Positions 1,211 to 64,000 of a stretch of DNA of 64,000 bases are shown here, piece after piece. The notes below the pieces were generated by a model. That model ran no database searches, was not told the DNA's origin, and was given only the letters and a program-made list of their open reading frames with translations. The first letter of the stretch is position 1. Each line of letters starts with the position of its first letter. Made by a program: the position numbers and the translations under genes. The stretch is from an uncultured Acidobacteriota bacterium (GTDB taxonomy: Bacteria; Acidobacteriota; G020349885; CAZDZC01): NCBI GenBank assembly GCA_964509835.1, contig CAZDZC010000003.1, positions 127,642 through 191,641 on the forward strand, written 5' to 3'.

Positions 1211-1269
1211 ATTTCCTGGGGGAACCTTTTTTATCATTTGTTTGACAGAGAAATTTTCGGCTGTTAAAA

Positions 1270-2346: not shown

Positions 2347-2358
2347 AAATCTGGTCTT

Positions 2359-2844: not shown

Positions 2845-2970
2845 AGCCGGAAGTATAAATCTTTTTTCTATCTATATCAAGTCTTCGATATTCTCTTTAC
2901 TAGATTAAAGCAGTATTTTATAATGAATTTTCGCGGGTCTTTCCTACTGTATTTTAGATCAGGAATAAAT

Positions 2971-37985: not shown

Positions 37986-38305
37986 AAAGGCAGTATTCTA
38001 ACATCTGGCATTCTTTGTTGTCAAAAAAATAACTGTGGATGCATGAATTAAATTCCCTCAATAATTCAAATATGCGTAAATTCATTCTCTGAATTCGTTT
38101 TATGTATTGCCTCATCTAATTTTCTAAACGAAAACATGAATGTTGCCTCATTGAAATTCTAAATGAAATTGGTTTCATTTTCCATAGTAGTAGAGCTGTT
38201 AAACTGTGGGAAACCCTTTGGCGTTTTCCACATGTGCGTCAGTTACGGCAGTTTTAATAGCTTTCTGCTCTAACATCTCATTGCTCTTTTCATTGACCTT
38301 GTTTT

Positions 38306-38835: not shown

Positions 38836-39013
38836 TTATACTTAAGTATTAAATAGAAAGGTTTCCAATAGTTGAAGAGAGCTGCTGTATTTATATTCTG
38901 CACATTGTTCTTAGTACAGGTATGTTTCGGATAAGTCAAATTAGGTGTATTACAGTTATAGATGTATTTTCAGACGAAAGTTTGTTTTGAATCCATTTTT
39001 CAAGGGGTAATTT

Positions 39014-52500: not shown

Positions 52501-53652
52501 GACCAGTCCGATGTTGATACTGATACATACGGTGATGTCTGTGACAACTGCCCATTGGACACGAACACCGACCAGTCTGATGTTGATACCGATACAGTGG
52601 GAGATGTCTGCGATAACTGTCCAGATGATGCGAACACACTTCAAGAGGATGTTGATACAGATGGTGTGGGTGATGTTTGCGATAACTGTCCGGCAGATTT
52701 CAACAGTGATCAGAGTGATGTTGACGGTGACACTGTGGGAGATGTCTGTGACAACTGTCCAGATGATGCAAATACACTTCAGGAGGATGTGGACGGTGAC
52801 GGGATTGGAGATGTATGTGATGTCTGCCCAGATGATCCCGATAATGATATTGACGGTGACGGAGTCTGCGGGGATGTGGACAACTGTCCGGCAACATCAA
52901 ACAGCGGTCAGGAGGATGCTGATACAGACGGTGTTGGGGATGTATGTGACAACTGTATTGATGATGCAAATACCCTTCAGGAGGATGTTGACGGTGACGG
53001 TGTCGGAGATGTCTGTGACAACTGTCCTCTAATAATTAATATTATCCAGCAGGATGAAGATCTCGACCTAGTAGGGGACTTCTGTGATAACTGTCCCTCA
53101 GTTGCCAATCCTTCTCAAGTCGATGTTGACGGTGACGGTGTCGGTGATGTATGCGATGTCTGTCCCAATGATTTTAATAACGATATAGATAGCGACGGAT
53201 TCTGTGCTGATGTTGACAATTGTCCTCTCATCTCCAATCCCAAGCAGAAGGATTTCGATGGAGACGGCATTGGTGACGACTGTGATGATGATGTTGATGG
53301 CGATCTTGTGAACAATGAAATTGACTGTGAACCCTGGAACCCTGCAGTATGGGCACCTCCCGGTCCGGCTTCTGACCTGATGCTTTCAGGCGGTGCCAAC
53401 ACCGTTATGGAGTGGACAACTGCAGGTATAACCGGAGGATCAGCTTTTACATTTGATCTTATCTGCAGTGAGGACCCGTCCGATTTCAGTGCCTGTAAGT
53501 GCATTGAATCAGACGACAACGATACAACAGCATCAGATCCTGCAATACCAGCTAACTGTTTCTTCTATCTTGTAAGGACCAGGAATGGCTGTGGCGAAGA
53601 ACTGGGAACAGACTCCAACCTTGTTTCAAGGAGTGCATCATCTTGCCCGTAA
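46597..53652 (+). CDS. Giant extracellular calcium-binding protein: signal anchor, SBBP-type beta-propeller repeats, >40 thrombospondin type-3 repeats, two internal ~190-aa paralogous domains, shared C-terminal tail
   Basis: The N-terminus is hydrophobic. Eight ~50-aa repeats follow (YGG..D.G..V..T.DGGY...G.T.S.G.G..D.W..KL...G...W) at ~47.1-48.2 kb. Long arrays of DxDxDGxGDxCDNCP (TSP3) repeats follow. Two related domains sit at ~50.44-51.03 and ~51.43-52.02 kb. Confidence 0.9.
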   Translation: MLKNRVTDFVIIVLLAIILSVCFIGNKVLTAADKEFERIYELRDPGLNADSYEEDDNCTGVLSNIIEDSETQSHDFSDDGEDWIAFNGCAGTTYTISTSNLGLFADTLIELYDRDCSILLTWDDNSGGGLASLLSWTVTASGLYHIKVLQADATFGAEREYDLNLSGSTASCLSWIKAYGGTADDAGSSVCSTYDGGYIVSGKTYSFGALANDMWFLKLDAYGSIVWEERIDGNSEDIPEEIIPTSDGGYIAMGYTFSQGVGGYDIWILKLNSSGSIIWQKTIGSSSDDVGYDMENTADGGFIISGYTLSSGSSDALIIKLSSDGLIEWEIRAGGTGYDNGASVVQTSDGGYFVTGQTSSYGAGGYDCWLLKLNSSGNILWCKTYGGSFTDRGNHVIETSDGGILITGYTSSYGAGNGDFWVIKTDSSGSVDWQKTYGGALNDIASGCIEVSDGFIISGMLTGLGNGNQDSWFIKLDLTGSVVWQKAYGLDLYETIGFIAPTPDKGIVAAGICNSIGSGGNDLWIMKFDETGSLSSDCGFETITSTAGSDSTASVSNPSVSAVSTSLLVLASTATVQPSTALITNPCPDSDGDGLSDDLDNCPFDFNPVQADSDTDDVGDICDVCPDDPDPGQEDQDTDGVGDTCDNCPAVSNPGQEDTDGDGIGDVCDLDADGDGIDDDIDNCPSVPNPGQNDTDGDTVGDECDACPGGDDRIDSDIDGVPDVCDNCEFTINPLQEDVDADYMGDVCDNCPTTYNPGQEDADLDGVGDACDLCAGFDDALDVDMDLIPDGCDNCPSVANPSQLDSDGDGYGDSCDVCVGGDDNLDADGDTVPDECDNCPDIPNPDQEDENANGVGDVCDLDDCIGAIPIDVTPFSDSYNVTSATHAVTDPVSVCPSSCPSDDHSVWFRYEATTSVSVIVDSVGSNYDTIMTVYSTDPVLGCDSLTYHSCNDDYSGTQSQVMFTTCPGDVYYVMVTSYDCSGGTLVLNASTAALKDKDGDGVGDICDNCMNTPNSGQEDVDGDGVGDACDNCVSDPNADQSDVDSDGIGDVCDTCPDDPDNDIDGDGVCGDIDNCPFDANTNQSDVDTDTIGDVCDNCQDDANTTQDDGDSDNVGDVCDNCHSDANTDQSDIDGDGIGDVCDICPGDPWNDIDGDGVCGDIDNCPTTANPLQEDADSDGVGDICDNCVNTLNPTQDDTDSDGAGDACDNCVNIPNTDQEDIDSDTVGDVCDNCPNDPNTDQADADGDGTGDVCDICPLDPDDDIDGDMLCADVDHCPELYNPIVDYSYDDTVTYSFIDATSGDLVLDIGDDAQALIPIGFDFVLYDGVYSQLNVSSNGYITLSSDGLEPYNICIPDISTPDLLITPFWDDLNITGDAAIYSILEGTAPYRRFTVEWYHLRHYPGIGSITFEVTFYESNNEIRMQYQDTDFGDVTFDLGASATSGIEGPGGTVGTDYSCDSPVLTDMLAVHYTPIVSNDDTDIDTVGDLCDNCPIDANTDQSDVDSDIFGDVCDNCPLDNNPGQEDVDSDGLGDICDNCMDISNPTQQDYDGDGLGDDCDNCPDYANAGQEDVDGDGIGDVCDNCPDEPNSDQSDVDADGIGDVCDLCPGTPYPGVGYNYDETAAFSYIDTSLAGIIAISSGDDTSTDISIGFDFEFYGNIYNSIKVSSNGYATFGSDGDDYSNDCLPYSLDPNDLIAVHWDDMSVPLTGMVSYFLEGTAPDRQLTIEWYHVERLGSSGDMTFEVTLYETTNEIKMQFLDVVVDVPSYSYGEGATTGLENIDGTEDVSFSCNVPFLSNGLAIMFSPRVPNSDFDGDTIGDICDNCPRTPNTDQSDVDGDGVGDVCDNCIDTPNEDQEDVDSDGVGDDCDNCHDNSNSDQSDIDTDNVGDVCDNCIDTPNEFQEDADTDGAGDVCDNCVDGFNTGQEDGDVDGVGDICDNCTVDANSGQEDADSDIVGDVCDNCPLDANPDQSDVDTDTYGDVCDNCPLDTNTDQSDVDTDTVGDVCDNCPDDANTLQEDVDTDGVGDVCDNCPADFNSDQSDVDGDTVGDVCDNCPDDANTLQEDVDGDGIGDVCDVCPDDPDNDIDGDGVCGDVDNCPATSNSGQEDADTDGVGDVCDNCIDDANTLQEDVDGDGVGDVCDNCPLIINIIQQDEDLDLVGDFCDNCPSVANPSQVDVDGDGVGDVCDVCPNDFNNDIDSDGFCADVDNCPLISNPKQKDFDGDGIGDDCDDDVDGDLVNNEIDCEPWNPAVWAPPGPASDLMLSGGANTVMEWTTAGITGGSAFTFDLICSEDPSDFSACKCIESDDNDTTASDPAIPANCFFYLVRTRNGCGEELGTDSNLVSRSASSCP
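48340..53330 (+). repeat. Coding tandem-repeat arrays of thrombospondin type-3 Ca-binding motifs (4 blocks: ~48.35-49.19, 49.59-50.44, 51.04-51.42, 52.03-53.30 kb)
   Basis: The ~36-45-nt-periodic repeat gatgtctgtgacaactg... recurs throughout. It generates numerous spurious antisense His/Pro-rich ORFs. Confidence 0.85.
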
Positions 53653-53684: not shown

Positions 53685-54329
53685 TTACAGGAGGAACAAT
53701 GTTGAGCAGCGCTGAATGTTTAATTGGCAGAGGTGGTACATTTTTATTCCGGCGATTACACTTATTCCTTTGAACATTTCAGCCATTTGTTCCGGCGTGG
53801 GTGGATTATAACTTTTGTCGAACATGGAATGAACGGGCCTGAAGAAATGGAACCTTCCTCCGCTCACTTTTGCCAGAAGCTTACAGAGCTTCTCTCCCGG
53901 AAGAGTTCCCTCTTCACTTCTGAAGCAGGGATTAAGCACAAAGAGAAGGGTCTTATGTCTCCTGTATTGAGATGCTGTCTGAATTGCATCCTTATAGGCA
54001 GGCTCATCAAATACATCTTTAAACTTATGGGTCAGAGGTTCGGGGTAGAAATCACTTATGGCAAGAACAATATTTCTGGAACCGGGTTTCCTGAACCTTT
54101 CCAGGCGACACATTTCCAGTCCTTTCCTCAGTCCGTCAGCGATCGGTGTTTCCCCGTCTACAGCAAGTTCTGAAAGATGTCGCAATATAACCCTGAAATT
54201 ATGAGTGGGGTTATTAATAATCTGAGCCTGCTTCCCCTGAATGGAGACAAGTCCGACCCTGTCATTGCTCCGTTTGAAATAACCTGTCAGGTTCTTCAGA
54301 AGTTCAGTGAACACCTTCACAAAAGGCAT
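53685..54329 (-). CDS. von Willebrand factor A (VWA) domain protein, ChlD-like C-terminal part; ORF as listed lacks its MIDAS motif, which lies upstream in the same frame (open to 54812 with no start codon) - likely frameshift-separated from the ChlI-like ORF
   Basis: The same-frame translation upstream of the first ATG reads ..LTLVLAVDVSRSTM, a DxSxS MIDAS motif. No ATG/GTG/TTG occurs between 54329 and the frame's upstream stop at 54813-54815. Confidence 0.65.
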   Translation of the reverse strand: MPFVKVFTELLKNLTGYFKRSNDRVGLVSIQGKQAQIINNPTHNFRVILRHLSELAVDGETPIADGLRKGLEMCRLERFRKPGSRNIVLAISDFYPEPLTHKFKDVFDEPAYKDAIQTASQYRRHKTLLFVLNPCFRSEEGTLPGEKLCKLLAKVSGGRFHFFRPVHSMFDKSYNPPTPEQMAEMFKGISVIAGIKMYHLCQLNIQRCSTLFLL

Positions 54330-54787: not shown

Positions 54788-55912
54788 TTAAGACAGAGGG
54801 CTTTTTTTTTCCTCAGAGACACCTTCTTTGGTGTAAGAAACATCTCCCGGGGATGACGGCGGAACTGTGCCTTCCAAGGCCGGTTTCTTTCCCGGTTTCA
54901 ATCCAAGGTACTTCGAAAACACTTCGTATATCTCTTCTTTAGTTGGAGGTTCAAGAAGTCCTCCGTCCCTCACTCTGTGAACAAGGGCAAGTTCGGCACT
55001 CATAAGAACATGGCTGTCTTCTGCAACAGTCTTTCCGTCAAGAGCTGCAAGAGTTCCTGCTGTCTTTGTGATGACAATATCAGGCCGCTGGCCGTCAACC
55101 TTAAGCTCTGCACATCCCGATGAGATGGCAAGAATAAGACTGTCGCCTATTGTTATATCCGGAAGGAGCGATTTTGCTTTTATAATTTTTTTGGCTGTCT
55201 GTCTTTCCTCTTCTTCAAACTTTTTTGCGAAAGCATCAGGATCATCTTCAAAAAGAATGTTCCTCTTGACAATTTCCACTCTCAATGAAGGATCTGATAC
55301 AGTTTCAGGTTTAACACAAAGAGGAAACCTGTCCAGGATCTGAGGCCGCAGTTCTCCTTCTTCGGGATTCATGGTCCCCACAAGAATGAACTCGGCAGGA
55401 TGGGAAACTGATAAACCTTCCCGTTCGATAGTATTCCAGCCAGATGCAGCAACATCAAGGATATCGTCAATAAGATGATCGGGAAGAAGGTTCACCTCAT
55501 CAATATAAAGGATATTCCCGTTGGCATCACCAAGTATACCGGGTTGGACCTTCTTCTCTCCGTCCTTAAGAAGCTTCTCAATATCAACAGTTCCGATAAG
55601 CCTGTCCTCTGTGCAGCTGAGAGGAAGATTCACCACCCTCATTGATCTGCTTACAGGTTCACCCAGAGGGGATTCACCACAGAAGGAACAGAGCTTTTTC
55701 GGATTTAGGGGAGAACATGAAAAAGGACATTCACTGTAACTTTCTCTATCAGGAAGAATGGAAGTGACGGAATGAACAACAGTGCTCTTGCCCGTTCCCT
55801 TGGGGCCGCTGATCAAAAGACCGCCCAGACGGGGATTCACAATATTGGCAAGATAGGCAGTCTTAAGCCTGTCCTGTCCAACTATGGCACTGAAAACAAA
55901 ATGTCCTCGCAT
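54788..55912 (-). CDS. Mg-chelatase ChlI/BchI-like AAA+ ATPase
   Basis: Walker A (LISGPKGTGKST), a Cys cluster (CPFSCSPLNPKKLCSFCGE), Walker B (ILYIDEVNLL) and the sensor/arginine finger region are all present, as in the ChlI family. Confidence 0.85.
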   Translation of the reverse strand: MRGHFVFSAIVGQDRLKTAYLANIVNPRLGGLLISGPKGTGKSTVVHSVTSILPDRESYSECPFSCSPLNPKKLCSFCGESPLGEPVSRSMRVVNLPLSCTEDRLIGTVDIEKLLKDGEKKVQPGILGDANGNILYIDEVNLLPDHLIDDILDVAASGWNTIEREGLSVSHPAEFILVGTMNPEEGELRPQILDRFPLCVKPETVSDPSLRVEIVKRNILFEDDPDAFAKKFEEEERQTAKKIIKAKSLLPDITIGDSLILAISSGCAELKVDGQRPDIVITKTAGTLAALDGKTVAEDSHVLMSAELALVHRVRDGGLLEPPTKEEIYEVFSKYLGLKPGKKPALEGTVPPSSPGDVSYTKEGVSEEKKSPLS

Positions 55913-56127: not shown

Positions 56128-57402
56128 ATGGAAACGGCAATAATCGCCAGCATCGGTATAATACTGATACTTCAGTTGATCAATATGATTATCCTGAATA
56201 AATCAAGCAGGGCTTCTGCCAATGCCGAACTTAAGAAATACCTGATGGATCAGTTCACTCAAATAAGGGACGAATCAAGAAAATCCTCCAAAGAAAACAG
56301 AGAGGAGCTTTCCGGCAATCTTCAGCTTTATCAGGACGCTGTTTTAAAGAGAATGTCCGAGTCTTCCGGATACCAGAAAGAGCAGCTTGAGACTTTCACC
56401 AAGCTGCTTGCTCAGTTGACAGAGGGAAATGAAAAAAAGCTGGAGCAGATGCGGACAACGATTGAGTGCAAAGTGAGAGAGCTTCAGGAAGGCAATGAGA
56501 AAAAGCTTGACGAAATGCGCAGGATCGTTGACGAGAAACTTCAGGAGACCCTTCAGAAACGCATCGGGGAATCCTTCAAGCTTGTGAGCGATAATCTGGA
56601 AAGGGTTCAGAAAGGTCTCGGCGAGATGCAGAACCTTGCAACCAGCGTTGGGGGCCTGAAAAGGGTTCTTGAAGATGTCAGGGCAAGAGGAGCATGGGGT
56701 GAAATCCAACTTGGAAGTCTCCTTGAAGAATTGCTGATAAAAGACCAGTATGAGGAAAATGTCGTCACAAAACCAGGCTCGTCCCAAAGAGTTGAATTTG
56801 CTCTCAAACTCCCAGGATATGATGAGGAAACACCAGTCAGGCTTCCCATTGATGCAAAATTTCCGCTCGAAAAATACAGTCAGGTTCTTGAGGCATACAA
56901 CAATGCGGACAACGCTGCGCTTGATGAGAGTATTAAAGAGCTTGCCAACGCCGTTAAAAAATCTGCAAAGGACATTTCTGAAAAATACATATCGCCGCCC
57001 GACACGACAAACTTCGCGATAATGTTCCTTCCCATCGAAGGGCTTTATGCTGAAGTGTTAAGGATTCCAGGTCTTGTGGAAAAGCTGCAACATGATTTCA
57101 GAGTGGTCGTCTCCGGTCCTACAACGCTGGCGGCTCTGCTAAACAGCCTCCAAATGGGGTTCAGGACCCTTGCAATCGAAAAACGCTCCGGCGAAGTATG
57201 GAAACTGCTGGGCGCAGTCAGAACGGATTTTGACAAATTCGGTGAAATGCTTGACAAGGTTGATAAAAACCTTCAGGCAGCCGGGAACAATCTCAGAGCA
57301 GTCACCGGAAAAACCTCAACCATAAAACGGAAACTAAAAGATGTTCAGGAACTCCCGGTAAATGAAGCAGCAGGAATGCTTGGGGATGGTGAGGACGATT
57401 AG
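56128..57402 (+). CDS. rmuC: DNA recombination protein RmuC
   Basis: An N-terminal TM helix is followed by a long coiled coil and a C-terminal RmuC nuclease-like domain (..LPIDAKFPLEKY..FAIMFLPIEGLY..). Confidence 0.8.
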   Translation: METAIIASIGIILILQLINMIILNKSSRASANAELKKYLMDQFTQIRDESRKSSKENREELSGNLQLYQDAVLKRMSESSGYQKEQLETFTKLLAQLTEGNEKKLEQMRTTIECKVRELQEGNEKKLDEMRRIVDEKLQETLQKRIGESFKLVSDNLERVQKGLGEMQNLATSVGGLKRVLEDVRARGAWGEIQLGSLLEELLIKDQYEENVVTKPGSSQRVEFALKLPGYDEETPVRLPIDAKFPLEKYSQVLEAYNNADNAALDESIKELANAVKKSAKDISEKYISPPDTTNFAIMFLPIEGLYAEVLRIPGLVEKLQHDFRVVVSGPTTLAALLNSLQMGFRTLAIEKRSGEVWKLLGAVRTDFDKFGEMLDKVDKNLQAAGNNLRAVTGKTSTIKRKLKDVQELPVNEAAGMLGDGEDD

Positions 57403-58883
57403 TTCTCGGTTTCTTCTTCGTCAGGGATAAGAGACAACCTGTATAAAGCCCATTCAGCTGTTGCTCTGACAGCAGGATCACTGTCTTTCCTTGACTTTTC
57501 AAGATAAGGCTTAGCACTCTTAAACTCTGCTCTTCCAAGGGTTTCAACGGCCTTTTGACGGACATAGGCTTTATAAGCATTTGATAACACATGGACCATA
57601 TGTTCATATGTAATTTCAGGGGGAAATTGCTCTAATGCTCTAATTGCATCACAAGCGACCCATTCATCAAGTTCAGTAAACTTTGCGATTACAGGAATTG
57701 CTTCAGGTTCCCCTATATTTACTAAAATCTCGAAAGCATCGTTAACAATACTGTAGTCCAGTTCGGGTTGAGATATCATCTTGCATAGAGGTTTTACTAA
57801 TGCATCACGACTGCTTGTCCCGGATAGTGCTTTCGCTGCTGAAATAGCGATATCAGAATTGTTTGAATCAAGGCAATAAAAAAGGAACTGGATTGAATCC
57901 ACATTATTCATTATTCCCAGTGTTTTAACAGCAGTTTCCATTAAATCATATTCATCACTCCAACTTCTGTATGCTTCACTGTTTTTTTCATAGTCAATCA
58001 CAGCAGATTTCAGTATTTCGATATCAATGGATACGCCTCGTTCCGTCAATTCCTTAACGACCCATGCCCTTAGATTAGGTTCAGGCCTGTTCACCAGACT
58101 CATCAGAATATTTGTAGATTCTTCTGTCTTGATATAATACAGTTTTGCTATAGCAGATTGCACAGTTTCGAAGCTGCTTGACTTAACCATCTTTTTAAGT
58201 ATTTCTACTTCTTCAGTAGCTTCTTTGGCTAGATACCAGTCCGGATCAAACTTATTTAAAGCTTCAGCAATCTTATAGCTGCTATATTTTTTATCGAAGT
58301 ATTTTTGCTTAAGGATATCCGTTGATTCTGAATAGTCTGTTTCAATCAAACAATCAACATAATCATTAATGTCATACTCACCAAATAATTCCCATCTGTT
58401 CAGAAAGAATTCAGCTGTTGCTCTCGGGTTAATTTTCTTCATCAGATTGAATATAGTACGATTATCTCCTCTAGATTCAATGATTTGAAACTTCAAATCT
58501 TCATACATTCGTTGTGCCTGTGCACTGTTAACCCAGTCCGGATCAATGTTGTCCAGAATCCACATTATGTAATAATAGTCGGCACTGACATTAAGTAACT
58601 TAATTAACGGTTCCACGGCAGATTTATCATTGAAGTGAAGGAGGGCTTCGTAGCATAAGTCATCCAAACTTATGTTTTGGTTTTTTGAACTGGAACTATT
58701 TTGAAGAATTGTAATTATCGTTCTGATGGCTCTTTTATCCCCAAGTTTTTTAAGGTTCAGAACTGCTTTGCATTGTTCAACCTCGTTGTCACTATTTAGC
58801 TTTTTGATAAGTTCCTCGTATTCTCCAGCAAATGACATAACAGAAAAAAGAAGAAATATAACTGTAAATAATTTCAGTTTCAT
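57399..58883 (-). CDS. Secreted HEAT/PBS-lyase-like repeat protein (paralog of 59785..61248)
   Basis: A signal peptide is followed by repeated ~30-aa alpha-helical units. The N-terminus (YEELIKKLNSDNEVEQCKAVLNLKKLGDKRA) and C-terminus (DPAVRATAEWALYRLSL) match the paralog. Confidence 0.7.
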   Translation of the reverse strand: MKLKLFTVIFLLFSVMSFAGEYEELIKKLNSDNEVEQCKAVLNLKKLGDKRAIRTIITILQNSSSSKNQNISLDDLCYEALLHFNDKSAVEPLIKLLNVSADYYYIMWILDNIDPDWVNSAQAQRMYEDLKFQIIESRGDNRTIFNLMKKINPRATAEFFLNRWELFGEYDINDYVDCLIETDYSESTDILKQKYFDKKYSSYKIAEALNKFDPDWYLAKEATEEVEILKKMVKSSSFETVQSAIAKLYYIKTEESTNILMSLVNRPEPNLRAWVVKELTERGVSIDIEILKSAVIDYEKNSEAYRSWSDEYDLMETAVKTLGIMNNVDSIQFLFYCLDSNNSDIAISAAKALSGTSSRDALVKPLCKMISQPELDYSIVNDAFEILVNIGEPEAIPVIAKFTELDEWVACDAIRALEQFPPEITYEHMVHVLSNAYKAYVRQKAVETLGRAEFKSAKPYLEKSRKDSDPAVRATAEWALYRLSLIPDEEETEN

Positions 58884-59707
58884 TTATCCTCCAGTACTTC
58901 AGGGAACTCTCTCTGAACCCACATAATAAAGTCCTCGACCTGTTCTTCCAGGAGCTTTCTGGACTGTTTCCTAGCTTCTTCCATAGGAATTGCTTCCTGT
59001 ATAATAGGGTCATAGAAGAGGGCTATGTTTGCTTCACAGTCTTTTCCAAGATCCTCTTTTATCTGCTGTGCATCCCCGATTAGGTTATAACTTTGAACGC
59101 TTGATGTATTTTCAATGCTCTTCTTGTTCAATACTTCAACATTAGTATGAGTAATATACTTTATCCCAAGATTGATATCGTCTCTGTAACCGTCAAACAC
59201 AAAATCGTGTTCCTCGGTAATTTCTATGTCTTTCTTGTAATCAACGAAGTACAAGTGTCTTTTGGTGCTGTTATAATTTTCCTTGAACAGATAATCCCTG
59301 GATTCGAATTTAATGCCTGCATTTTCCAGTTTTTTTAGGATGATCTCCTTCGCATCAGATTCTGAAATGAAACAGGGGGGTGTCATAACTATACATCCTG
59401 TAGATCCTCGCCCATCACCGTGAATGAATATGGGGGCAATCTTGCAGTTAATATTTTCATTAATTTCCATTGTGAATTGCTCTTTTACCGGTTTTCGAGG
59501 TGTAACGACTACTGTGTCGTCAGGTGTATCGATATTTTCTGCTGAGCAGTTACCTCCAAAAACAAACGCTGTCAAAGCACTTGCGACAATACTGCTTTTA
59601 AGCCATTTTGCGGGGACATACCTCAAAAGCATCTCCGGGTTGTTTTCATAGACAAACCGTTCAGGATACTTCGGACTTTGGTATTTCCTTTCTGCCTTTA
59701 TCTTCAT
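58880..59707 (-). CDS. Membrane-anchored protein of unrecognised family X (paralog B) with conserved FIHGDGRGSTGCIVMTPPCF motif
   Basis: An N-terminal cytosolic motif (K.YQSPKYPERFVYE) is followed by one TM helix and a periplasmic domain. It shows ~45% identity by eye to 62372..63205 and 63382..>64000. Confidence 0.7.
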   Translation of the reverse strand: MKIKAERKYQSPKYPERFVYENNPEMLLRYVPAKWLKSSIVASALTAFVFGGNCSAENIDTPDDTVVVTPRKPVKEQFTMEINENINCKIAPIFIHGDGRGSTGCIVMTPPCFISESDAKEIILKKLENAGIKFESRDYLFKENYNSTKRHLYFVDYKKDIEITEEHDFVFDGYRDDINLGIKYITHTNVEVLNKKSIENTSSVQSYNLIGDAQQIKEDLGKDCEANIALFYDPIIQEAIPMEEARKQSRKLLEEQVEDFIMWVQREFPEVLEDK

Positions 59708-59784
59708 TTCTATACCTCTAAAAAGAGTAAATACAAATTTGACAACGAAATACTATGATCAAAAACATATTAAGTCAAATAAAG

Positions 59785-61248
59785 TCAGTTTTCTAAAAGG
59801 GATAATCTGTACAATGCCCACTCTGTTGTGGCGCGAACTATTGCGTCTTCGCTCTGCATTTGTTTTCGGAGATATTTGACAGCATCTTTTCTCCCAATTC
59901 TCCCCAATATTTCCGTAGCTTTCGCTTTTACATCTCTGTTTTCACTTTCTTCAAGAGATTTGAATATGTAATATTTAATTTTATCATAAGTGAAACATGA
60001 AAGTGCTTCCAAAGCATCACAGGCTACATATTGATCTGAAAAGGGATTGATGTCAGTGCTGGAAAGGAATTCTGCAATAGATGGAATACTTCTATCATCA
60101 CCGATTTCACTGAGTATATGAAGCAAGTCTCCAGTTCTGTGATCAAGTGGTCCTTTCGCTTTGAGCAATTCACAGATTAAAGGAGCAGCCTCTTCACAAT
60201 CTCTTTCAGTAAAAGTTTTAGCAGCTTCAAAAGCGATTTCGGGAACCGTTTTATCAGAAAGGCACTTTAGAAGCAGTTGTGTGGACTGTTCACTGCGGTC
60301 ATCGTTGAGGATTGTTATAACTGCGCAGATTAATTGCTTGATATTATTCTGTCTTCTGTCTGCTCTAAGTTCTCCATTATTTTTCAGAACGAACTTTCTA
60401 AGATCGTCGAATGAGAATGATTCTCCTCTCCTGTAGAGTTCTTTAAGAGCATCGGCTTTATGAACACAATCGCTTTTAATAATAATTTTGAGAAGATCGG
60501 TAGCTTCTTCTGATTTGATCTCCAACAGCCTGTTGAGAGTATCATTATCATATTTGTTTGCATGAATGCTTTTTTCAAACTCTGCGAGAGCACTGATAAC
60601 CGTATCTGATTTATACCAGTTTTCGTCAAGTCTATACAGTGTTTCAGCCATTGGGGTAAAACAACAGTCTTTTTTAAGAAATATAGAAGTCAATATCTGC
60701 ACTGCTTCAGGATTATTTGAGTCAGAAATGCATTTAAGGATACTTGGCAGCTCTTTTTCTAAAAGATCGGATTTGGCAAGGAAATATGAAGCAGTCTGTT
60801 CTGGATTAATACTGATTAGAATTTCAAGATATCCGGCCTTGACCATGCCCTCTCTTTCAACATCTTTAACGATACTTTCGAATAACTTGGAAGCTTCATC
60901 CGTCTTTGTCCAATTCTTGTCCAGAGAGTTCAGAATCGGGACTAACCAGTACGGCTCCCTTGTTTCCTTAAGAGACTTGATCAACGGTTTTACTGCTATA
61001 GGATCGTTAAGCTTCTCTAAAGTATCCCAGATCTCTCTAACAAAATTACTTCTCCAGTTTCTACTTTCCATAGCATTGATCAAGTGCGGTACAGCCCTCT
61101 TATCGCCAAGTTCACGAAGCTTCAAAACAGCCTTGTACTGCGTTTCAATGTTATCACTCTTGAGATCATTGATAAGGGTTTCATAATCTGAGGAAAAGGA
61201 AACAACAGGAAGGAACAGCAGCATCAAAATTATAATTCTTATTCTCAT
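59785..61248 (-). CDS. Secreted HEAT/PBS-lyase-like repeat protein (paralog of 57399..58883)
   Basis: Same architecture as its paralog, with conserved N- and C-terminal segments (DYETLINDLKSDNIETQYKAVLKLRELGDKRA ... RATTEWALYRLSLLEN). Confidence 0.7.
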   Translation of the reverse strand: MRIRIIILMLLFLPVVSFSSDYETLINDLKSDNIETQYKAVLKLRELGDKRAVPHLINAMESRNWRSNFVREIWDTLEKLNDPIAVKPLIKSLKETREPYWLVPILNSLDKNWTKTDEASKLFESIVKDVEREGMVKAGYLEILISINPEQTASYFLAKSDLLEKELPSILKCISDSNNPEAVQILTSIFLKKDCCFTPMAETLYRLDENWYKSDTVISALAEFEKSIHANKYDNDTLNRLLEIKSEEATDLLKIIIKSDCVHKADALKELYRRGESFSFDDLRKFVLKNNGELRADRRQNNIKQLICAVITILNDDRSEQSTQLLLKCLSDKTVPEIAFEAAKTFTERDCEEAAPLICELLKAKGPLDHRTGDLLHILSEIGDDRSIPSIAEFLSSTDINPFSDQYVACDALEALSCFTYDKIKYYIFKSLEESENRDVKAKATEILGRIGRKDAVKYLRKQMQSEDAIVRATTEWALYRLSLLEN

Positions 61249-62372
61249 GTTACATCCTCAAGATAGGAAAGCATCGGATACATGACATTGTAATGTTTCT
61301 GAATAAACAGGGCGTTGCGTTTTTTAAACAATCGTTCTGCGAGTCTGTCTGCAATCGGAATAAGCAATCTCTCTGTTTCACAAAGGAGCGGAGAAACCTT
61401 TCCAATATTGCCCGTAGTTTGCCAATTAAGACATCCGCATCTGTGTTCACATCTCAGATTAAAAGCACACTCAGTACATTCACTTCCACATGATTGTGAT
61501 TGTTCATAAAGAGCATTAACTTTGTCAGTGTCTATACCTGAAGAAATATGGCCGATCGAGTATTCAGTATTTGAAACTCCGTCCTGAACAAACTGAACAC
61601 AGGGATAAATGCTGCCGTTCGGTGCGATGGAGACCTGCTTTTTCCCAAGCTGGCACTGGATGCAGACAGCTTCCTCTCCCCGGATATGAGAAGCAATCTT
61701 CTTTTCAAAAGGGCTGAAATAGAATTTGACATTGTTCTCTGTAAGTCTTTCATATTCCTTGGCCATCAGTCCGTATTGTTTTTTCAATACAGTCAGATCC
61801 TTGTCAGTCCATTCGGCTGAATGATCCAGTGAAGTCACAATATATCGAAAACCTTTATCGAGCATATTTAAAAAGGATGAATGGAAATCCTGCACTGTGT
61901 CCGGTGAGATAACCATGTATGCTTGCGCATAAGGTTGGAATTTAAGAAGAAGCTTTGCACGGTTTGAAACAATGCCGTAAGAACCTTCCCCTGCTGAATT
62001 TTTTCGATGGGAATTGTGAGCTTTCTCTGTACCGTCAATACTCAAAGCTACCGTGAGCCTTGATGCAGAAGCATATTTCAAGAAGGTCTCATCCATAAGA
62101 AGGCCATTAGTTGTGACTTTATGATGAAAAGAAATCCCTTTGCTTCTTGCGAGTTCAGAAGAATATTCTATCGCTTCGGAAATCAGTTCCTTTTTAAGAA
62201 GAGGTTCCCCGCCGAAGTATATTAGTCCAGTGTCGGGAGATGAGAAGGTTGTTGTAAAATCAATTGCCTGCCTGAGAGTTTCAGGTGACATATCTATCCT
62301 GTCTGAATGGGGCGCATAGCAGTAATCACAATTTAGATTGCAGCCTGTCGTTAGATGGAGAGTTATGTGCAT
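61245..62372 (-). CDS. Radical SAM/SPASM-domain maturase (anSME-like)
   Basis: CNLNCDYCY is the CX3CX2C cluster. The C-terminal SPASM Cys cluster is CIQCQLG...CGSECTECAFNLRCEHRCGC. The gene overlaps both neighbours by 1-4 nt. Confidence 0.85.
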   Translation of the reverse strand: MHITLHLTTGCNLNCDYCYAPHSDRIDMSPETLRQAIDFTTTFSSPDTGLIYFGGEPLLKKELISEAIEYSSELARSKGISFHHKVTTNGLLMDETFLKYASASRLTVALSIDGTEKAHNSHRKNSAGEGSYGIVSNRAKLLLKFQPYAQAYMVISPDTVQDFHSSFLNMLDKGFRYIVTSLDHSAEWTDKDLTVLKKQYGLMAKEYERLTENNVKFYFSPFEKKIASHIRGEEAVCIQCQLGKKQVSIAPNGSIYPCVQFVQDGVSNTEYSIGHISSGIDTDKVNALYEQSQSCGSECTECAFNLRCEHRCGCLNWQTTGNIGKVSPLLCETERLLIPIADRLAERLFKKRNALFIQKHYNVMYPMLSYLEDVT

Positions 62373-63205
62373 CAGATTCCTTTCTTATCAGCATATGCAG
62401 GGAACTCTCTTCTTAACCAATGAAGAAAATCATCAACTTGTTCAGCCAACAGCTTCCGGGACAGAGTCCTTGCTTTTTCCATATCATAGTTACCATCCAT
62501 CTTAGTCATAGGATCATAAAATAGCGCCATGTTGATGTGAACCTCATTTTTCATTTTCTCTCTGAATTCCTGGGCTTCACCTAAAATATTCGTGTAACCC
62601 ACACTTATCCACACCTTATCTTCCGACTCTTCAATGTCCCTAAGTTTTCTGACATTATCATGCGAGATAAACTTAATTGCCAGGTTAATGTCTTCAATTA
62701 AACCGTCAAAAACAAGATCGTTAGTTGTTTCGATTAAGAAGCTGTGATTCCCGGTGATATTGTGTTTCAGAATGTGTTTTGTGAAGTTCTTTCTATGAAC
62801 ATAGTTTCTTGAGTCAAACTTAAGACCATATCCTTCCAATTTGCTGAAAATGATCTCCTTTGCATCAGCTTCAGTAAGAAAGCAGGGAGGGTTCATTACA
62901 ATGCAGCCCGTACTGCCCCTTCCATCACCATGAATGAAAAGCGGCGCTATAGAGTAGTTCTTTTTTAAATTGATCTTATCTGGATGGTCAAATTCACCGT
63001 CTGTGATCGCTACATCTGAATTACCGTCTGATGAGCAACTCAATGTAAATCCAGAAAGTACAAAAACTGATAAAGCCCCGGTGATGACCCGGTTTTTCAG
63101 CCATCCATAAGGGATGTGCTCCAAAATAAGTTCCGGATGCTTTTCATAAACTAATCTGACAGGATAAGAAGGTGTTTTATAATTTTTCTTTGCTTTCAGC
63201 TTCAT
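62372..63205 (-). CDS. Membrane-anchored protein of unrecognised family X (paralog A) with conserved FIHGDGRGSTGCIVMNPPCF motif
   Basis: First gene of the minus-strand operon. It has the N-terminal KNYKTPSYPVRLVYE motif, one TM helix, and the conserved C-terminal region (ALFYDP...RKLLAEQVDDF). Confidence 0.7.
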   Translation of the reverse strand: MKLKAKKNYKTPSYPVRLVYEKHPELILEHIPYGWLKNRVITGALSVFVLSGFTLSCSSDGNSDVAITDGEFDHPDKINLKKNYSIAPLFIHGDGRGSTGCIVMNPPCFLTEADAKEIIFSKLEGYGLKFDSRNYVHRKNFTKHILKHNITGNHSFLIETTNDLVFDGLIEDINLAIKFISHDNVRKLRDIEESEDKVWISVGYTNILGEAQEFREKMKNEVHINMALFYDPMTKMDGNYDMEKARTLSRKLLAEQVDDFLHWLRREFPAYADKKGI

Positions 63206-63381
63206 TCATGTACCTACCAGAGTATGCAAGTCGAACTGCGTTTTATACAATCTGATACTAACTTATGTCCAATCAGCAGTCAATCAATATTTGTAATTTT
63301 CAAAGGTCTCTGTTGGAGAAGAACCAGTTATTGTGTTATCATTCGCGAGAAGGGGAATTCGTATTTATTCAGGAGGTTAAA

Positions 63382-64000
63382 ATGCAGGTCAGACCGGTTA
63401 AGAAGTATAAACTGCCGAAATATCCCGATCAGGAGCTGTTTTTTGATAAACCGGAACTTCTGCTTTCCAATGCCCCTGCGGATTGGTTCAAAAAGAAAAC
63501 AGTCATTGCAGCTTTGACGGCATTTACTGTTGGCAGTTCATATGCTGAAAGTCCGGTTGATAAACCCGTAGTTGAGCAGGTCGAACCTTCGGAGTTGAAG
63601 GAACAAGCCGTTTCTGAATCTGAGATTAAAATAGAAGATAAGCGATGTAAAATAGCTCCATTGTTTATTCACGGTGAAGGCAGAGGAGCTACGGGGTGTG
63701 TCGTAATATCACCTCCATGCTTTATGTCGGAAGTTGAAGCTTTCGAGATCATAGTTACAGAACTCCGGAAAGCTGGAATCGAATTTCCTGAGTTCAATTA
63801 TCACTGGAAGGACGATTTTTCTAAATTCAAAGGCTATGATAGCTATGATGCTGACGAACCTGTCACCATTAAATCATCACTTGTCTTTGATGCATTTAAT
63901 GAAGAAAAAAATCTGGGTATAAAGTTTGTTTCAATATTAAACCATAACAGATTGACCGATAAAGACACATCAGAAGAAATGCGAAGTTCTGTTCAGAGCT
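63382..64000 (+). CDS. Membrane-anchored protein of family X (paralog C), 3'-truncated by window end; not in ORF track because unterminated
   Basis: A strong RBS (AGGAGG) precedes the ATG at 63382. The frame is open to 64000. It encodes MQVRPVKKYKLPKYP...IAPLFIHGEGRGATGCVVISPPCFMSE, with no stop in frame. Confidence 0.65.
   Translation, partial: MQVRPVKKYKLPKYPDQELFFDKPELLLSNAPADWFKKKTVIAALTAFTVGSSYAESPVDKPVVEQVEPSELKEQAVSESEIKIEDKRCKIAPLFIHGEGRGATGCVVISPPCFMSEVEAFEIIVTELRKAGIEFPEFNYHWKDDFSKFKGYDSYDADEPVTIKSSLVFDAFNEEKNLGIKFVSILNHNRLTDKDTSEEMRSSVQS

What the first reader, a model, noticed from the sequence alone, without database searches (positions are those of the whole stretch)
57399..64000. 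Tightly coupled operon X - radical SAM/SPASM - HEAT - X' - HEAT' with a third X paralog divergent: candidate undescribed maturation system
Five minus-strand genes overlap by 1-4 nt. In order they are:
- a ~277-aa membrane-anchored protein X;
- an anSME-like radical SAM/SPASM;
- a ~490-aa secreted HEAT-repeat protein;
- a second X paralog;
- a second HEAT paralog.

A third X paralog is transcribed divergently off the window end.

All X copies share:
- an N-terminal cytosolic K.Y..PKYP motif;
- one TM helix;
- an invariant periplasmic motif IAP[IL]FIHG[DE]GRG[SA]TGC[IV]V[MI].PPCF..E..A.EII;
- a conserved C-terminus (ALFYDP...RKLL.EQV.DF..W).

SPASM radical SAM enzymes typically install thioether, formylglycine or other crosslinks on Cys- or Ser-containing protein substrates. 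The invariant GC....PPC motif in X is a plausible target. The 1:1 pairing of X with HEAT-repeat secreted proteins suggests complexes. I do not recognise this arrangement as a described system.
Basis: partly seen in the sequence, partly recalled or inferred. Interest (0 to 1): 0.7.

Follow-up and report, generated by a model that had tools for sequence, protein, structure and literature searches.

The report
Tagged exported proteins with radical-SAM maturase
A widespread but unannotated two-gene module pairs a radical-SAM/SPASM enzyme with exported proteins that carry a conserved tag at the very start of their signal peptide; this window holds an expanded copy (three such proteins plus two HEAT-repeat proteins), and the modification the enzyme makes is still unknown.

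Summary
The genes are real and lie where stated: X1, rSAM/SPASM, HEAT1, X2 and HEAT2 on the minus strand, with X3 divergent.

X has no Pfam, NCBIfam or PDB sequence match. Even so, it is a large family: 1,448 representatives at 50% identity, spread over at least 12 phyla.

In 98 of 120 genome loci an ortholog of the window rSAM (40-52% identity) lies directly downstream of one to several tandem X genes. In the reverse direction, every rSAM ortholog with enough upstream sequence has an X-type gene in front of it. No other neighbour is conserved. HEAT, MORN, ankyrin and TPR partners occur only in some lineages.

- X is more likely exported through a signal peptide with a conserved ~38-residue N-terminal extension than anchored by a true TM helix.
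- Only one Cys (C101) is invariant across the family.
- The rSAM scores best against PapB and SCIFF thioether maturases, not anSME.

Sister rSAM clades (36-40% identity) sit beside unrelated proteins that share only the N-terminal tag (K-P-x-K-x-Y-x-x-P-x-Y) and the signal peptide. The tag, not the Cys loop, is therefore the element that travels with the enzyme.

Best reading: tag-directed maturation before export, at an unresolved site. I found no description of this system in the databases or papers searched.

The parts
62372..63205 (-). X1, 277 aa: N-terminal tag, signal-peptide-like hydrophobic segment, variable linker, and a ~190-aa alpha/beta domain with invariant Cys101.
   Evidence: ORF. 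No Pfam or NCBIfam hit. Family profile search finds 1,448 representatives. AF2 model has mean pLDDT 85.
63092..63205 (-). X1 residues 1-38: conserved N-terminal tag (M-K-x-K-P-x-K-x-Y-x-x-P-x-Y-P ... P-x-x-W), predicted to be cytoplasmic.
   Evidence: P12, Y14, P15, P32 and W35 are conserved in at least 93% of 153 relatives. The same tag occurs on unrelated proteins next to sister rSAMs. Net charge is +2 before the hydrophobic segment and -0.3 after it.
62849..62950 (-). X1 residues 86-119: Gly-rich Cys loop and first helix ([VI]AP.F.HG.G.G..GC....PP.F.SE.EA..II). C101 and E112 are invariant.
   Evidence: Conservation table. DNA pattern hit at 62870-62944.
61245..62372 (-). Radical SAM/SPASM enzyme, 375 aa, with no N-terminal RRE-type domain. 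CX3CX2C lies at residues 11-18 (nt 62319-62342). The SPASM Cys are 240, 258, 299, 302, 308, 312, 314 and 331 (nt 61380-61655). A family-specific C-terminal extension covers residues 332-375 (nt 61248-61379).
   Evidence: Pfam Radical_SAM, Fer4_12 and SPASM. NCBIfam best hit is PapB at 224.9 bits, below the 340 cut-off. PDB best hit is CteB, 2e-33, aligned from CteB residue 99. Conserved Cys across 77 and 30 orthologs.
59785..61248 (-). HEAT1, 487 aa, a secreted HEAT-repeat protein (N-terminal signal-peptide-like MRIRIIILMLLFLPVVSFSS). Lineage-specific accessory gene.
   Evidence: HEAT_2 at 88 bits and HEAT_PBS at 47 bits. 4-nt overlap with the rSAM stop. Not conserved in other loci.
59708..59784 (-). 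77-nt spacer between HEAT1 and X2, with a sigma-70-like TTGACT-17-TAGTAT. It may mark a second transcription start.
   Evidence: The scan as a whole is not above shuffled controls, so this is weak.
58880..59707 (-). X2, 275 aa, a paralog of X1 (~45% identity).
57399..58883 (-). HEAT2, 494 aa, a secreted HEAT-repeat paralog of HEAT1 (31% identity).
63206..63381 (.). 176-nt divergent intergenic region between X1 and X3.
   Evidence: The upstream regions of X1, X2 and X3 are not alignably conserved.
63382..64000 (+). X3, the first 206 of 276 codons. This third X paralog is divergently transcribed and cut by the window end.
   Evidence: 100% identical to P0013 over 206 aa.

Best explanation
This locus is an expanded copy of a widespread, unannotated two-gene module. 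One to several tandem genes encode exported proteins, and a dedicated radical SAM/SPASM enzyme follows them.

Each exported protein starts with a conserved tag of 15-38 residues: (M)K-x-K-P-x-K-x-Y-x-x-P-x-Y-P, and in X also ...P-x-x-W. The tag sits in the cytoplasmic n-region of a Sec-type or lipoprotein-type signal peptide.

Proposed mechanism (inferred): the cytoplasmic, oxygen-sensitive enzyme has no RRE domain but has a family-specific C-terminal extension. It recognises the tag much as a RiPP maturase recognises a leader, and it modifies the protein before, or while, the signal peptide takes it across the membrane.

The enzyme's nearest characterised relatives are PapB, CteB/SCIFF maturases and QhpD, which all make Cys thioether cross-links. 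The leading candidate chemistry is therefore a Cys-centred cross-link. In X the candidates are invariant Cys101 and an acidic acceptor such as invariant Glu112. The site has not been shown, and the tag itself is a serious alternative.

The two secreted HEAT-repeat proteins are lineage-specific accessories, probably periplasmic binding partners of X.

Shown here: the gene structure, the size of the family, the two-way X-rSAM linkage, and the sharing of the tag across unrelated partner proteins.
Inferred: enzyme-substrate relation, timing, chemistry and site.
For: 1. X is a large unannotated family. 1,448 representatives have E<=1e-3 and 503 have E<=1e-30. No Pfam or NCBIfam model matches any of 128 members, and there is no PDB sequence hit.
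98 of the 120 carry an rSAM ortholog at 40-52% identity. It lies on the same strand directly downstream of X. Architectures are X-R in 59 loci, X-X-R in 22 and X-X-X-R in 6, with gaps mostly of -4 to +25 nt. Most loci without the rSAM are cut off just after X.
3. Reciprocal test. Among metagenome loci found with the rSAM alignment, 11 of 11 orthologs scoring at least 296 bits and having upstream sequence carry an X-type gene in front.
4. No other neighbour is conserved; the largest cluster covers 5 of 120 loci. X and the rSAM abut, so there is no room between them for a small precursor ORF.
5. Several tandem paralogs in front of one maturase is the usual precursor/maturase layout.
6. Sister rSAMs at 36-40% identity sit beside otherwise unrelated proteins: 74-120-aa acidic lipoprotein-like ORFs, a Cys/Asp/Glu-rich 352-aa protein, a 481-aa protein, and reduced X-like proteins of 190 aa that lack the Cys loop. 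These all keep the N-terminal tag and the hydrophobic segment. None of 58 loci with more distant rSAMs has the tag.
7. Export. The hydrophobic segment is short, the charge bias is positive-inside, and 41 of 149 members have a lipobox-like motif.
8. The enzyme has the CX3CX2C motif and the full SPASM Cys set. PapB is the best family for all 30 orthologs tested, with a best E of 1.9e-71. It starts directly at the radical-SAM core.
Against: - There is no biochemical evidence, and neither the modification nor its site is known.
- The Cys loop is absent from sister-clade partners L140 and L143, so Cys101 cannot be the universal target.
- The linker between tag and Cys101 varies from 7 to 82 residues.
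- The SPASM domain has 8 invariant Cys, including an extra C314 in a C-x-C that CteB lacks. PapB, Tte1186 and CteB use an open iron site on auxiliary cluster 1 to bind the substrate Cys (PMC10177961; 7 versus 8 Cys, PMC10352776). If C314 fills that site, PapB-type chemistry becomes less likely.
- The tag does not resemble the PapA leader LKQINVIAGVKEPIRAYG.
- A few loci (L049, L076, possibly L109 and L011) have X with no rSAM within the fetched sequence.
- Signal-peptide cleavage was judged by eye and simple rules, not with a dedicated predictor.
Confidence: 0.6

Rival explanations
1. First reader's version. The rSAM modifies the periplasmic-domain motif of X: Cys101 (and Cys108) become a thioether cross-link or formylglycine, as with QhpD on QhpC or anSME on sulfatases. 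The N-terminal motif plays no part in recognition.
For: - C101 is present in 151 of 153 members and E112 in 153 of 153. The surrounding 30 residues are the best-conserved part of X.
- The enzyme's closest families all act on Cys.
- The RRE-less, ~370-aa architecture resembles anSME, which recognises the residues around its target directly.
Against: - Cys108 is Val, Ala or Ile in most members.
- Sister-clade partners of closely related rSAMs lack the whole Gly-rich Cys loop yet keep the tag.
- No C/S-x-P/A-x-R sulfatase motif follows C101 (sequence).
- The anSME residue Asp277, which follows the second SPASM Cys, is Val259 here and nearly invariant. Its role as catalytic base is from my memory of the anSME structure paper.
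- The anSME model scores 121 bits against a 349 cut-off.
Confidence: 0.3
2. The tag itself is the substrate. The rSAM cross-links, epimerises or otherwise alters Tyr, Pro or Lys residues within K-P-x-K-x-Y-x-x-P-x-Y on the cytoplasmic side. This would control export or anchoring, or yield a modified peptide derived from the signal peptide once signal peptidase has cut.
For: - The tag is the only element shared by all partner proteins of the rSAM superclade.
- It always sits at the extreme N-terminus.
- P5, Y9, P12 and Y14 are the residues kept even in the shortest partners.
- It stays on the same side of the membrane as the enzyme.
- The enzyme has no RRE, so it may bind its target segment directly.
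- Eight invariant SPASM Cys could mean there is no open site for a substrate thiol.
Against: - I know of no precedent for rSAM modification of a signal-peptide n-region.
- The best-scoring characterised relatives are Cys-thioether enzymes and the tag contains no Cys.
- Cyclophane-forming families score much lower, at 1e-16 to 1e-20.
Confidence: 0.3
3. There is no enzyme-substrate relation. The rSAM makes or alters a small molecule or cofactor that X binds or handles outside the cell, and the two genes are merely co-expressed.
For: - Some SPASM and twitch enzymes act on small molecules (general knowledge).
- X has a compact alpha/beta domain with invariant His, Cys, Glu and Asp residues that could form a ligand or metal site.
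Against: - This does not explain why unrelated proteins next to sister rSAMs share the N-terminal tag.
- It does not explain why X occurs in one to several tandem copies per enzyme.
- No transporter or further biosynthetic gene is conserved nearby.
- All the top-scoring rSAM families are peptide or protein maturases.
Confidence: 0.07
4. X is a PD-(D/E)XK-type nuclease or a related DNA-acting protein, and the rSAM link is incidental.
Against: - The (D/E)-x-K position is E-F-V, and that E is present in only 83 of 153 members.
- The protein has a signal peptide or lipobox.
- The rSAM linkage is near-universal.
Confidence: 0.03

Closest known systems
PapB-family ranthipeptide maturases (NCBIfam NF047865), which form Cys-Asp/Glu thioethers in PapA
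   Same: Radical SAM core plus a full SPASM domain. This is the best-scoring family for the window enzyme (1.5e-66), for all 30 orthologs tested and for the sister clades. The alignment covers model positions 5-328 of 330. PapB needs only a leader plus a Cys and a downstream acidic residue (PMC9413430), and X could provide those (C101...E112).
   Different: The score is 225 bits against a curated cut-off of 340. The partner is a 275-aa exported protein, not a short peptide with CX3D repeats. The tag is unlike the PapA leader. There is an extra invariant Cys314 and a ~44-residue C-terminal extension.
CteB / SCIFF maturases (TIGR03974; PDB 5WGG)
   Same: Closest solved structure by sequence, at 2e-33. 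It shares the PC[VH]QFV motif and the CX2CX5CX3C spacing.
   Different: The alignment starts at CteB residue 99, so the N-terminal RRE domain is missing here. The score is 159 bits against a 425 cut-off. No SCIFF peptide gene is present. CteB has Ala where this family has Cys314.
Anaerobic sulfatase-maturating enzyme and its sulfatases (TIGR03942; PDB 4K37)
   Same: It works in the same way in outline. An RRE-less SPASM enzyme of about 370 aa in the cytoplasm modifies a full-length protein that carries a signal peptide, before export.
   Different: The score is 121 bits against a 349 cut-off. Val259 replaces Asp277. X has no C/S-x-P/A-x-R motif and is not a sulfatase.
QhpD-QhpC (quinohemoprotein amine dehydrogenase maturation; TIGR03906)
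   Same: An rSAM/SPASM enzyme installs Cys-Asp/Glu thioethers with 5-8-residue spacing in a protein subunit bound for the periplasm, guided by an N-terminal leader (from my knowledge of the system).
   Different: The score is 139 bits against a 453 cut-off, and the QhpD model aligns only from position 96. No qhp genes are nearby, and X is unrelated to QhpC.
Signal peptides with conserved n-region extensions (KxYKxGKxW, YSIRK, ESPR), and the TIGR04133 'rSAM_w_lipo' family
   Same: These are conserved sequence motifs placed ahead of the hydrophobic core of a signal peptide. The model name of TIGR04133 shows that at least one rSAM-with-lipoprotein pairing has been catalogued (what that pairing consists of is from my memory).
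   Different: No NCBIfam model of any kind matches X or the sister-clade partners. TIGR04133 matches only 1 of 30 rSAM orthologs, weakly at 2e-21. As far as I know, the known extended signal peptides are not linked to a radical SAM enzyme.

Membership tests
Radical SAM / SPASM superfamily | CX3CX2C motif for the SAM-binding cluster | tested here: met
   C11, C15 and C18 are invariant in 77 and in 30 orthologs. Pfam Radical_SAM scores 54 bits against a 29.5 cut-off.
Radical SAM / SPASM superfamily | Seven-Cys SPASM motif: CX9-15GX4C ... CX2CX5CX3C ... C | tested here: met
   C240-x12-G-x4-C258, C299-x2-C302-x5-C308-x3-C312 and C331 are all invariant. C314 is an additional invariant Cys. Pfam SPASM is just below threshold for the window protein, 19.8 against 21.5.
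PapB-family ranthipeptide maturase (NF047865) | Score at or above the curated equivalog cut-off (340 bits) | tested here: not met
   224.9 bits. The best of 30 orthologs has E 1.9e-71. Sister clades score 189-214 bits.
PapB-family ranthipeptide maturase (NF047865) | Adjacent short precursor peptide with a leader and Cys-X3-Asp/Glu motifs | tested here: not met
   There is no such ORF. X abuts the rSAM, and the tag is unlike the PapA leader.
PapB / Tte1186 / CteB thioether synthases | Auxiliary cluster 1 with an open coordination site for the substrate Cys (7-Cys SPASM) | tested here: inconclusive
   Eight invariant Cys are present here, and C314 aligns with Ala in CteB. Whether C314 ligates the cluster cannot be told from sequence. 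The literature basis is.
SCIFF maturase (TIGR03974 / CteB) | N-terminal RRE domain of about 100 residues, and the curated cut-off of 425 bits | tested here: not met
   The protein starts at the radical SAM core. It aligns with model positions 100-440 and with CteB residues 99-442, and scores 159 bits.
Anaerobic sulfatase maturase (TIGR03942) | Curated cut-off of 349 bits | tested here: not met
   121 bits.
Anaerobic sulfatase maturase (TIGR03942) | Asp directly after the second SPASM Cys (Asp277 in the C. perfringens enzyme). Its role as catalytic base is from memory. | tested here: not met
   The aligned residue is Val259, which is nearly invariant in the family.
Anaerobic sulfatase maturase (TIGR03942) | Substrate carries a C/S-x-P/A-x-R sulfatase signature | tested here: not met
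   C101 is followed by [VI]-[VA]-x-x-P-P, and there is no sulfatase domain.
QhpD (TIGR03906) | Curated cut-off of 453 bits, and neighbouring qhpA/B/C genes | tested here: not met
   139 bits. No such neighbours occur in the window or in the 120 loci.
HEAT-repeat proteins (PF13646 HEAT_2) | Repeats above the Pfam gathering score | tested here: met
   HEAT1 scores 88.2 bits and HEAT2 100.3 bits, against a 27.7 cut-off.
Phycobiliprotein lyases CpcE/F, CpeY and NblB | Curated NCBIfam cut-offs of 220-600 bits | tested here: not met
   The best scores are 26-47 bits and reflect shared repeats only.
PD-(D/E)XK nuclease fold (for the X domain) | Core alpha-beta-beta-beta-alpha-beta fold together with a conserved D...(D/E)-x-K catalytic motif | tested here: not met
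Bacterial lipoproteins (for X) | Lipobox [LVI]-[ASTVI]-[GAS]-C at the end of the signal peptide | tested here: inconclusive
   Not canonical in the window copies: X1 has T-L-S-C, X2 has G-G-N-C, and X3 has none. A lipobox-like motif occurs in 41 of 149 relatives and in all sister-clade partners inspected except L145. No dedicated predictor was available.
TIGR04133 'rSAM_w_lipo' system | The rSAM matches TIGR04133 and the partner matches its lipoprotein model | tested here: not met
   Only 1 of 30 orthologs matches, at 2e-21. The partners match no NCBIfam model.

The most novel reading that the evidence does not exclude
A whole clade of radical SAM/SPASM enzymes is dedicated to a new kind of signal: a conserved tag in the cytoplasmic n-region of Sec or lipoprotein signal peptides. 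The enzyme would modify the tag itself, or use it as a built-in leader, so that covalent radical chemistry is coupled to protein export for many unrelated exported proteins across more than a dozen phyla. That would add a maturation step to bacterial protein secretion. It might also yield modified peptides derived from signal peptides.
Probability: 0.3. Interest if true: 0.88.

Novelty: new variant of a known kind. Interest (0 to 1): 0.72.

Why it matters
Radical SAM/SPASM maturases are a main source of new peptide chemistry. Almost all the known ones act on short RiPP precursors, and only a few act on whole proteins (sulfatases, QhpC).

Here a large, phylogenetically broad clade has no annotation and is tied to exported proteins of about 100-480 residues. 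Those proteins share a strictly N-terminal tag fused to a signal peptide.

If the link is enzymatic, it defines three things:
- a new class of protein substrate;
- a new recognition element that replaces the RRE/leader pair;
- a checkpoint between cytoplasmic radical chemistry and export.

The hypothesis can be tested directly by co-expressing two genes and measuring intact mass. It would also give names to more than a thousand 'hypothetical protein' clusters and to their rSAM partners, including genes in cultured strains such as Hungatella effluvii DSM 24995.

Tried and rejected
I replaced it with a hand-made degenerate DNA pattern.
- The look-up of encoding contigs for X1 found no record. 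For X2 it returned only a 1.2-kb contig. The sequence beyond the window end and the source organism therefore stay unknown. P0013 supplied the full X3.
- The afdb50 fold library was unavailable.
- The X profile found no PDB sequence.
- PADLOC gave only generic viperin and HEAT matches, so this is not a known defence system.
- The promoter/terminator scan was no better than shuffles. The regions upstream of X1, X2 and X3 do not align.
- All-against-all clustering of neighbours and Pfam scans of upstream and downstream neighbours found no third conserved gene.
- I compared the tag with the PapA leader to test a 'ranthipeptide-type leader' idea. They are unrelated.
- Six literature searches found no description of the system.
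- I considered YkuD-like (S-H-G-C), alpha/beta-hydrolase HGGG and Rossmann Gly-loop readings of the Cys motif. I rejected them because the spacing and the predicted fold do not fit, and no Pfam hit supports them.

Full report
OBSERVATION

ORF listing confirms five minus-strand genes:
- X1: 62372-63205, 277 aa
- radical SAM/SPASM enzyme: 61245-62372, 375 aa
- HEAT1: 59785-61248, 487 aa
- X2: 58880-59707, 275 aa
- HEAT2: 57399-58883, 494 aa

A third X copy starts at 63382 on the plus strand and runs off the window. Its 206 residues are identical to the first 206 of a 276-aa public protein, P0013.

X1/rSAM, rSAM/HEAT1 and X2/HEAT2 overlap by 1, 4 and 4 nt. HEAT1 and X2 are 77 nt apart, so the 'five overlapping genes' are really 3 + 2. 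HEAT2 ends 4 nt inside the convergent RmuC gene.

X1/X2 are about 45% identical and X1/X3 about 35%. HEAT1/HEAT2 are 31% identical, E 5e-64. A degenerate DNA pattern for the conserved P88..E112 stretch hits the window three times, against zero expected.

Pfam gives Radical_SAM, Fer4_12 and SPASM for the enzyme and HEAT_2/HEAT_PBS for the two repeat proteins. It gives nothing for X.

X IS A LARGE, UNANNOTATED FAMILY

The word-indexed search found only four relatives. An exhaustive profile search of 1.84 billion representatives found many more: 1,448 at E<=1e-3, 1,130 at E<=1e-10 and 503 at E<=1e-30.

None of 128 members matches any Pfam or NCBIfam model consistently. The family profile hits no PDB sequence. 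The few members that carry a source name are called 'hypothetical protein'.

Conservation over 153 members defines four parts:
1. A strictly N-terminal tag, M-K-[IV]-K-P-[VIL]-K-x-Y-x-x-P-x-Y-P ... P-x-L-L ... P-x-x-W. P12, Y14, P15, P32 and W35 are each present in at least 93% of members.
2. A hydrophobic segment.
3. A variable linker of 7-82 residues rich in K, S, E, T and P.
4. A domain of about 190 residues containing [VI]AP.F.HG.G.G..GC....PP.F.SE.EA..II, then D167, S181 and A211, then FYDP, then LL..QV.DF..W.

Only one Cys is invariant: C101, present in 151 of 153 members.

TOPOLOGY

The hydrophobic segment is only about 12-16 residues long. Net charge is +2.0 before it and -0.3 after it. 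In 41 of 149 members a lipobox-like L-x-[GAS]-C follows it. X3 has a typical S-Y-A|E signal-peptidase site.

I therefore read X as an exported protein or lipoprotein whose signal peptide has an unusually long, conserved n-region, not as a protein with a genuine TM anchor. This rests on simple rules. No dedicated predictor was available.

FOLD

An AlphaFold2 model of X1, built with a 128-sequence alignment, is confident: mean pLDDT 85 and pTM 0.69. It has a disordered linker (residues 57-85) and an alpha/beta domain.

THE ENZYME

It starts directly at the radical-SAM core (MHITLHLTTGCNLNCDYCY) and has the full SPASM cysteine set.

In NCBIfam the best family is PapB, the ranthipeptide maturase (1.5e-66; 225 bits against a 340 cut-off). 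The next best are, each with its score and curated cut-off:
- SCIFF maturase: 159 / 425
- QhpD: 139 / 453
- CXXX-repeat maturase: 136 / 350
- Nif11 maturase: 135 / 519
- DynA: 124 / 450
- anSME: 121 / 349

No curated cut-off is reached. All 30 orthologs tested behave the same way, as do the sister clades.

The closest solved structure is CteB (2e-33). It aligns only from CteB residue 99, which means the N-terminal RRE domain is absent here. anSME follows at 7e-19.

Across 77 and 30 orthologs the invariant Cys are 11, 15 and 18, then 240, 258, 299, 302, 308, 312, 314 and 331.

Three features mark the clade:
- An extra invariant C314 (C-G-C), which is Ala in CteB.
- PCVQFV after the second SPASM Cys. 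CteB has PCHQFV. anSME has PCDFYV, whose Asp I recall as the proposed catalytic base.
- A conserved ~44-residue C-terminal extension (ER.L.PIAD..A..L.KKR..F..KHYN..YP) that CteB lacks.

PapB and Tte1186 bind the substrate Cys at an open iron site on auxiliary cluster 1 (PMC10177961). QhpD, CteB and Tte1186 have 7 SPASM Cys (PMC10352776). Whether the eighth Cys here closes that site cannot be told from sequence.

LINKAGE, FORWARD DIRECTION

The phyla and groups represented include:
- Planctomycetota
- Bacillota, including the cultured Hungatella effluvii DSM 24995 and Clostridium sp. D33t1
- Hydrogenedentota, Cloacimonadota and Acidobacteriota
- Bacteroidota, including Ignavibacteriaceae
- Verrucomicrobiota and Victivallales
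- Armatimonadota, WOR-3, Fischerbacteria and Firestonebacteria
- Deltaproteobacteria, a few Alpha- and Gammaproteobacteria, and Coriobacteriia

tblastn finds an ortholog of the window rSAM (40-52% identity, typically 300-420 bits) in 98 of the 120 loci. It is always on the same strand and directly downstream of X. Architectures are X-R in 59 loci, X-X-R in 22, X-X-X-R in 6 and longer arrays in 3. Gaps are mostly -4 to +25 nt.

Of the loci without the rSAM, nearly all are cut off just after X. Only L049, L076 and possibly L109 and L011 are real exceptions.

LINKAGE, REVERSE DIRECTION

An alignment of 30 rSAM orthologs was used to fetch 80 metagenome loci. All 11 homologs that score at least 296 bits and have upstream sequence carry an X-type gene directly in front. 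Ten of these are full X and one is a reduced form.

OTHER NEIGHBOURS

All-against-all clustering of the other ORFs in the 120 loci finds no family present in more than 5 loci.

Pfam scans of the immediate upstream and downstream genes show only scattered themes: ankyrin in 3 loci, LysM in 4, HEAT in 1, and TPR.

In the first four homolog loci the gene after X varies:
- L001: a HEAT protein
- L002 and L004: an 842-aa MORN-repeat protein
- L006: the rSAM itself

The HEAT proteins of the window are therefore lineage-specific additions, not part of the conserved core.

THE KEY TWIST

In the metagenome set, rSAMs at 36-40% identity form sister groups whose neighbours are not X:
- L150: three tandem ORFs of 74-120 aa, MKITPAKNYKKPLYAIGIAAAIMTVAVTGC..., followed by acidic low-complexity sequence.
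- L148: two Thr-rich lipoprotein-like ORFs that start MQWKPMKEYKAPAY...LLNGC.
- L141: a 352-aa Cys/Asp/Glu-rich repeat protein downstream of the rSAM that starts ...FQVKPVQTYDGARYPS...LIGC.
- L145: a 481-aa protein that starts ...LKVTPVKRYKAPKYPS....
- L140 and L143: reduced X-like proteins of about 190 aa. They keep the tag, a lipobox, the PP.F.SE helix and the DFI.WL C-terminus, but lack the whole Gly-rich Cys loop and FYDP.

None of these matches Pfam or NCBIfam.

A strict regular expression for the tag followed by a hydrophobic stretch finds no case near the 58 rSAMs below 36% identity. L144, L146, L147 and L149 were not resolved by this filter. L142 gave only a weak X-profile match and was not examined further. 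I did not inspect any of these five by hand.

Within the 120 genome loci, 165 of 182 X-domain ORFs carry the tag.

The element that travels with this enzyme clade is therefore the N-terminal tag plus signal peptide, not the Cys101 loop.

INTERPRETATION

Well supported: this is a dedicated enzyme-partner module, and the partner proteins are its substrates or at least its direct clients. The grounds are:
- the two-way linkage;
- several tandem 'precursor' paralogs per enzyme;
- the absence of any other conserved gene or small ORF;
- a shared tag on otherwise unrelated partner proteins.

Inferred: the tag acts like a leader. It is read in the cytoplasm by an enzyme that lacks an RRE, possibly through its C-terminal extension. 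Modification comes before export, as with anSME and sulfatases or QhpD and QhpC.

Unresolved: the chemistry and the site.

For a Cys thioether at C101 in X:
- every close characterised relative makes Cys thioethers;
- PapB needs only a leader, a Cys and a downstream acidic residue;
- C101 and E112 are invariant.

Against that reading:
- sister-clade partners lack the loop;
- the tag-to-Cys distance is variable;
- the SPASM domain has 8 Cys;
- C101 and E112 are 10 residues apart, whereas PapB is efficient at 1-5.

The alternative is that the tag itself is modified. That gives one uniform target for the whole clade, but it has no precedent and the tag has no Cys.

My estimates:
- about 0.6 that tag-directed protein maturation is correct;
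- within that, roughly equal weight for a downstream Cys and for the tag itself;
- about 0.07 for a small-molecule function of the rSAM;
- about 0.03 for X being a nuclease.

COMPARISON WITH KNOWN SYSTEMS, AND NOVELTY

In outline the module works most like anSME with sulfatases or QhpD with QhpC. By sequence the enzyme is nearest to PapB and CteB. It fails the curated membership cut-offs of all of these, and it lacks their defining partners.

NCBIfam has a model named 'rSAM_w_lipo' (TIGR04133). That model matches only 1 of 30 orthologs, weakly. No NCBIfam model matches the partner proteins.

Six full-text searches found no description.

I rate it a new variant of a known kind: an rSAM/SPASM maturase with a cognate substrate. 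Two features are unusual, namely whole exported proteins as partners and a recognition tag built into the signal peptide. The interest is substantial because the clade is large and broad, and the hypothesis can be tested with a two-gene co-expression.

LIMITS

- The source organism and the sequence beyond X3 could not be recovered.
- Signal-peptide calls are rule-based.
- The structural model could be compared only as a whole, so residue contacts such as the C101-E112 distance could not be read.
- No complex prediction was possible.

Noticed in passing
L150:1494-2539; L148:5174-5987; L141:7128-8186; L145:4476-5921; L140:265-837; L143:1791-2366: Sister-clade rSAMs (36-40% identical to the window enzyme) sit beside proteins with unrelated or much-reduced mature regions. 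These are small acidic or Thr-rich lipoprotein-like ORFs, a Cys/Asp/Glu-rich repeat protein, a 481-aa protein, and reduced X-like proteins without the Cys loop. All of them start with the same K-P-x-K-x-Y-x-x-P-x-Y tag. None has a Pfam or NCBIfam match.
   Followed up: partly
window 61431-61433 (Cys314 of the rSAM) and its orthologs: An eighth invariant SPASM cysteine forms a C-x-C with Cys312. It is Ala in CteB. It may complete the ligation of auxiliary cluster 1, which would bear on whether PapB-type thiolate binding is possible.
   Followed up: partly
window 61248-61379 (rSAM residues 332-375): A conserved C-terminal extension follows the last SPASM Cys (ER.L.PIAD..A..L.KKR..F..KHYN..YP). 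It is kept in the main clade and in sister rSAMs L141 and L145, is truncated in L148, and is absent from CteB. It is a candidate tag-binding element that replaces the RRE.
   Followed up: partly
L002:10995-13523, L004:6022-8550, L071:5846-7996; ankyrin, TPR and LysM neighbours in several L008-L127 loci: In a minority of loci the X-rSAM cassette lies next to a large repeat protein (MORN_2, ankyrin, TPR or HEAT) or next to LysM proteins. Different solenoid proteins seem to fill the slot that the HEAT proteins hold in the window.
   Followed up: partly
L121:about 1-7350: Nine X-like ORF pieces lie in a row upstream of one rSAM. Some are separated by 0-nt gaps. This looks like a long tandem array with frameshifts or assembly errors.
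   Followed up: no
window 63255-63283 and 59750-59778 (minus strand): The same promoter-like hexamer pair, TTGACT-17-TAGTAT, lies 50 nt upstream of X1 and 43 nt upstream of X2, although the two upstream regions do not otherwise align. The scan as a whole is not above shuffled controls.
   Followed up: partly
window 39014-46531 and 46597-53652 (+): Two giant ORFs. One is a 2,505-aa protein with a Peptidase_C25 (gingipain-type) domain and its propeptide, plus MAM-like, fn3 and PKD domains. The other is a 2,351-aa protein full of thrombospondin type 3 repeats.
   Followed up: no
window 53685-54329 and 54788-55912 (-): A small vWA-domain protein lies next to a ChlI/MoxR-type AAA ATPase (Mg_chelatase, AAA_5, AAA_lid_2), between the giant proteins and RmuC.
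   Followed up: no
window 34350-37470 (-): A BtrH_N/DUF4872 protein (papain-like N-terminal domain) is directly followed by an ABC ATPase and an ABC-2 permease. The overlapping stop and start codons suggest one operon.
   Followed up: no
window 57399-57402: HEAT2 (minus strand) and the convergent RmuC gene (56128-57402, plus strand) overlap by 4 nt at their 3' ends. That leaves no room for a separate terminator between them.
   Followed up: no
window about 24000 and 38000-40000: GC skew changes sign where the coding strand switches: plus-strand genes up to ~24.4 kb, minus-strand genes from 24.4 to 38 kb, then plus-strand genes again from 39 kb.
   Followed up: no
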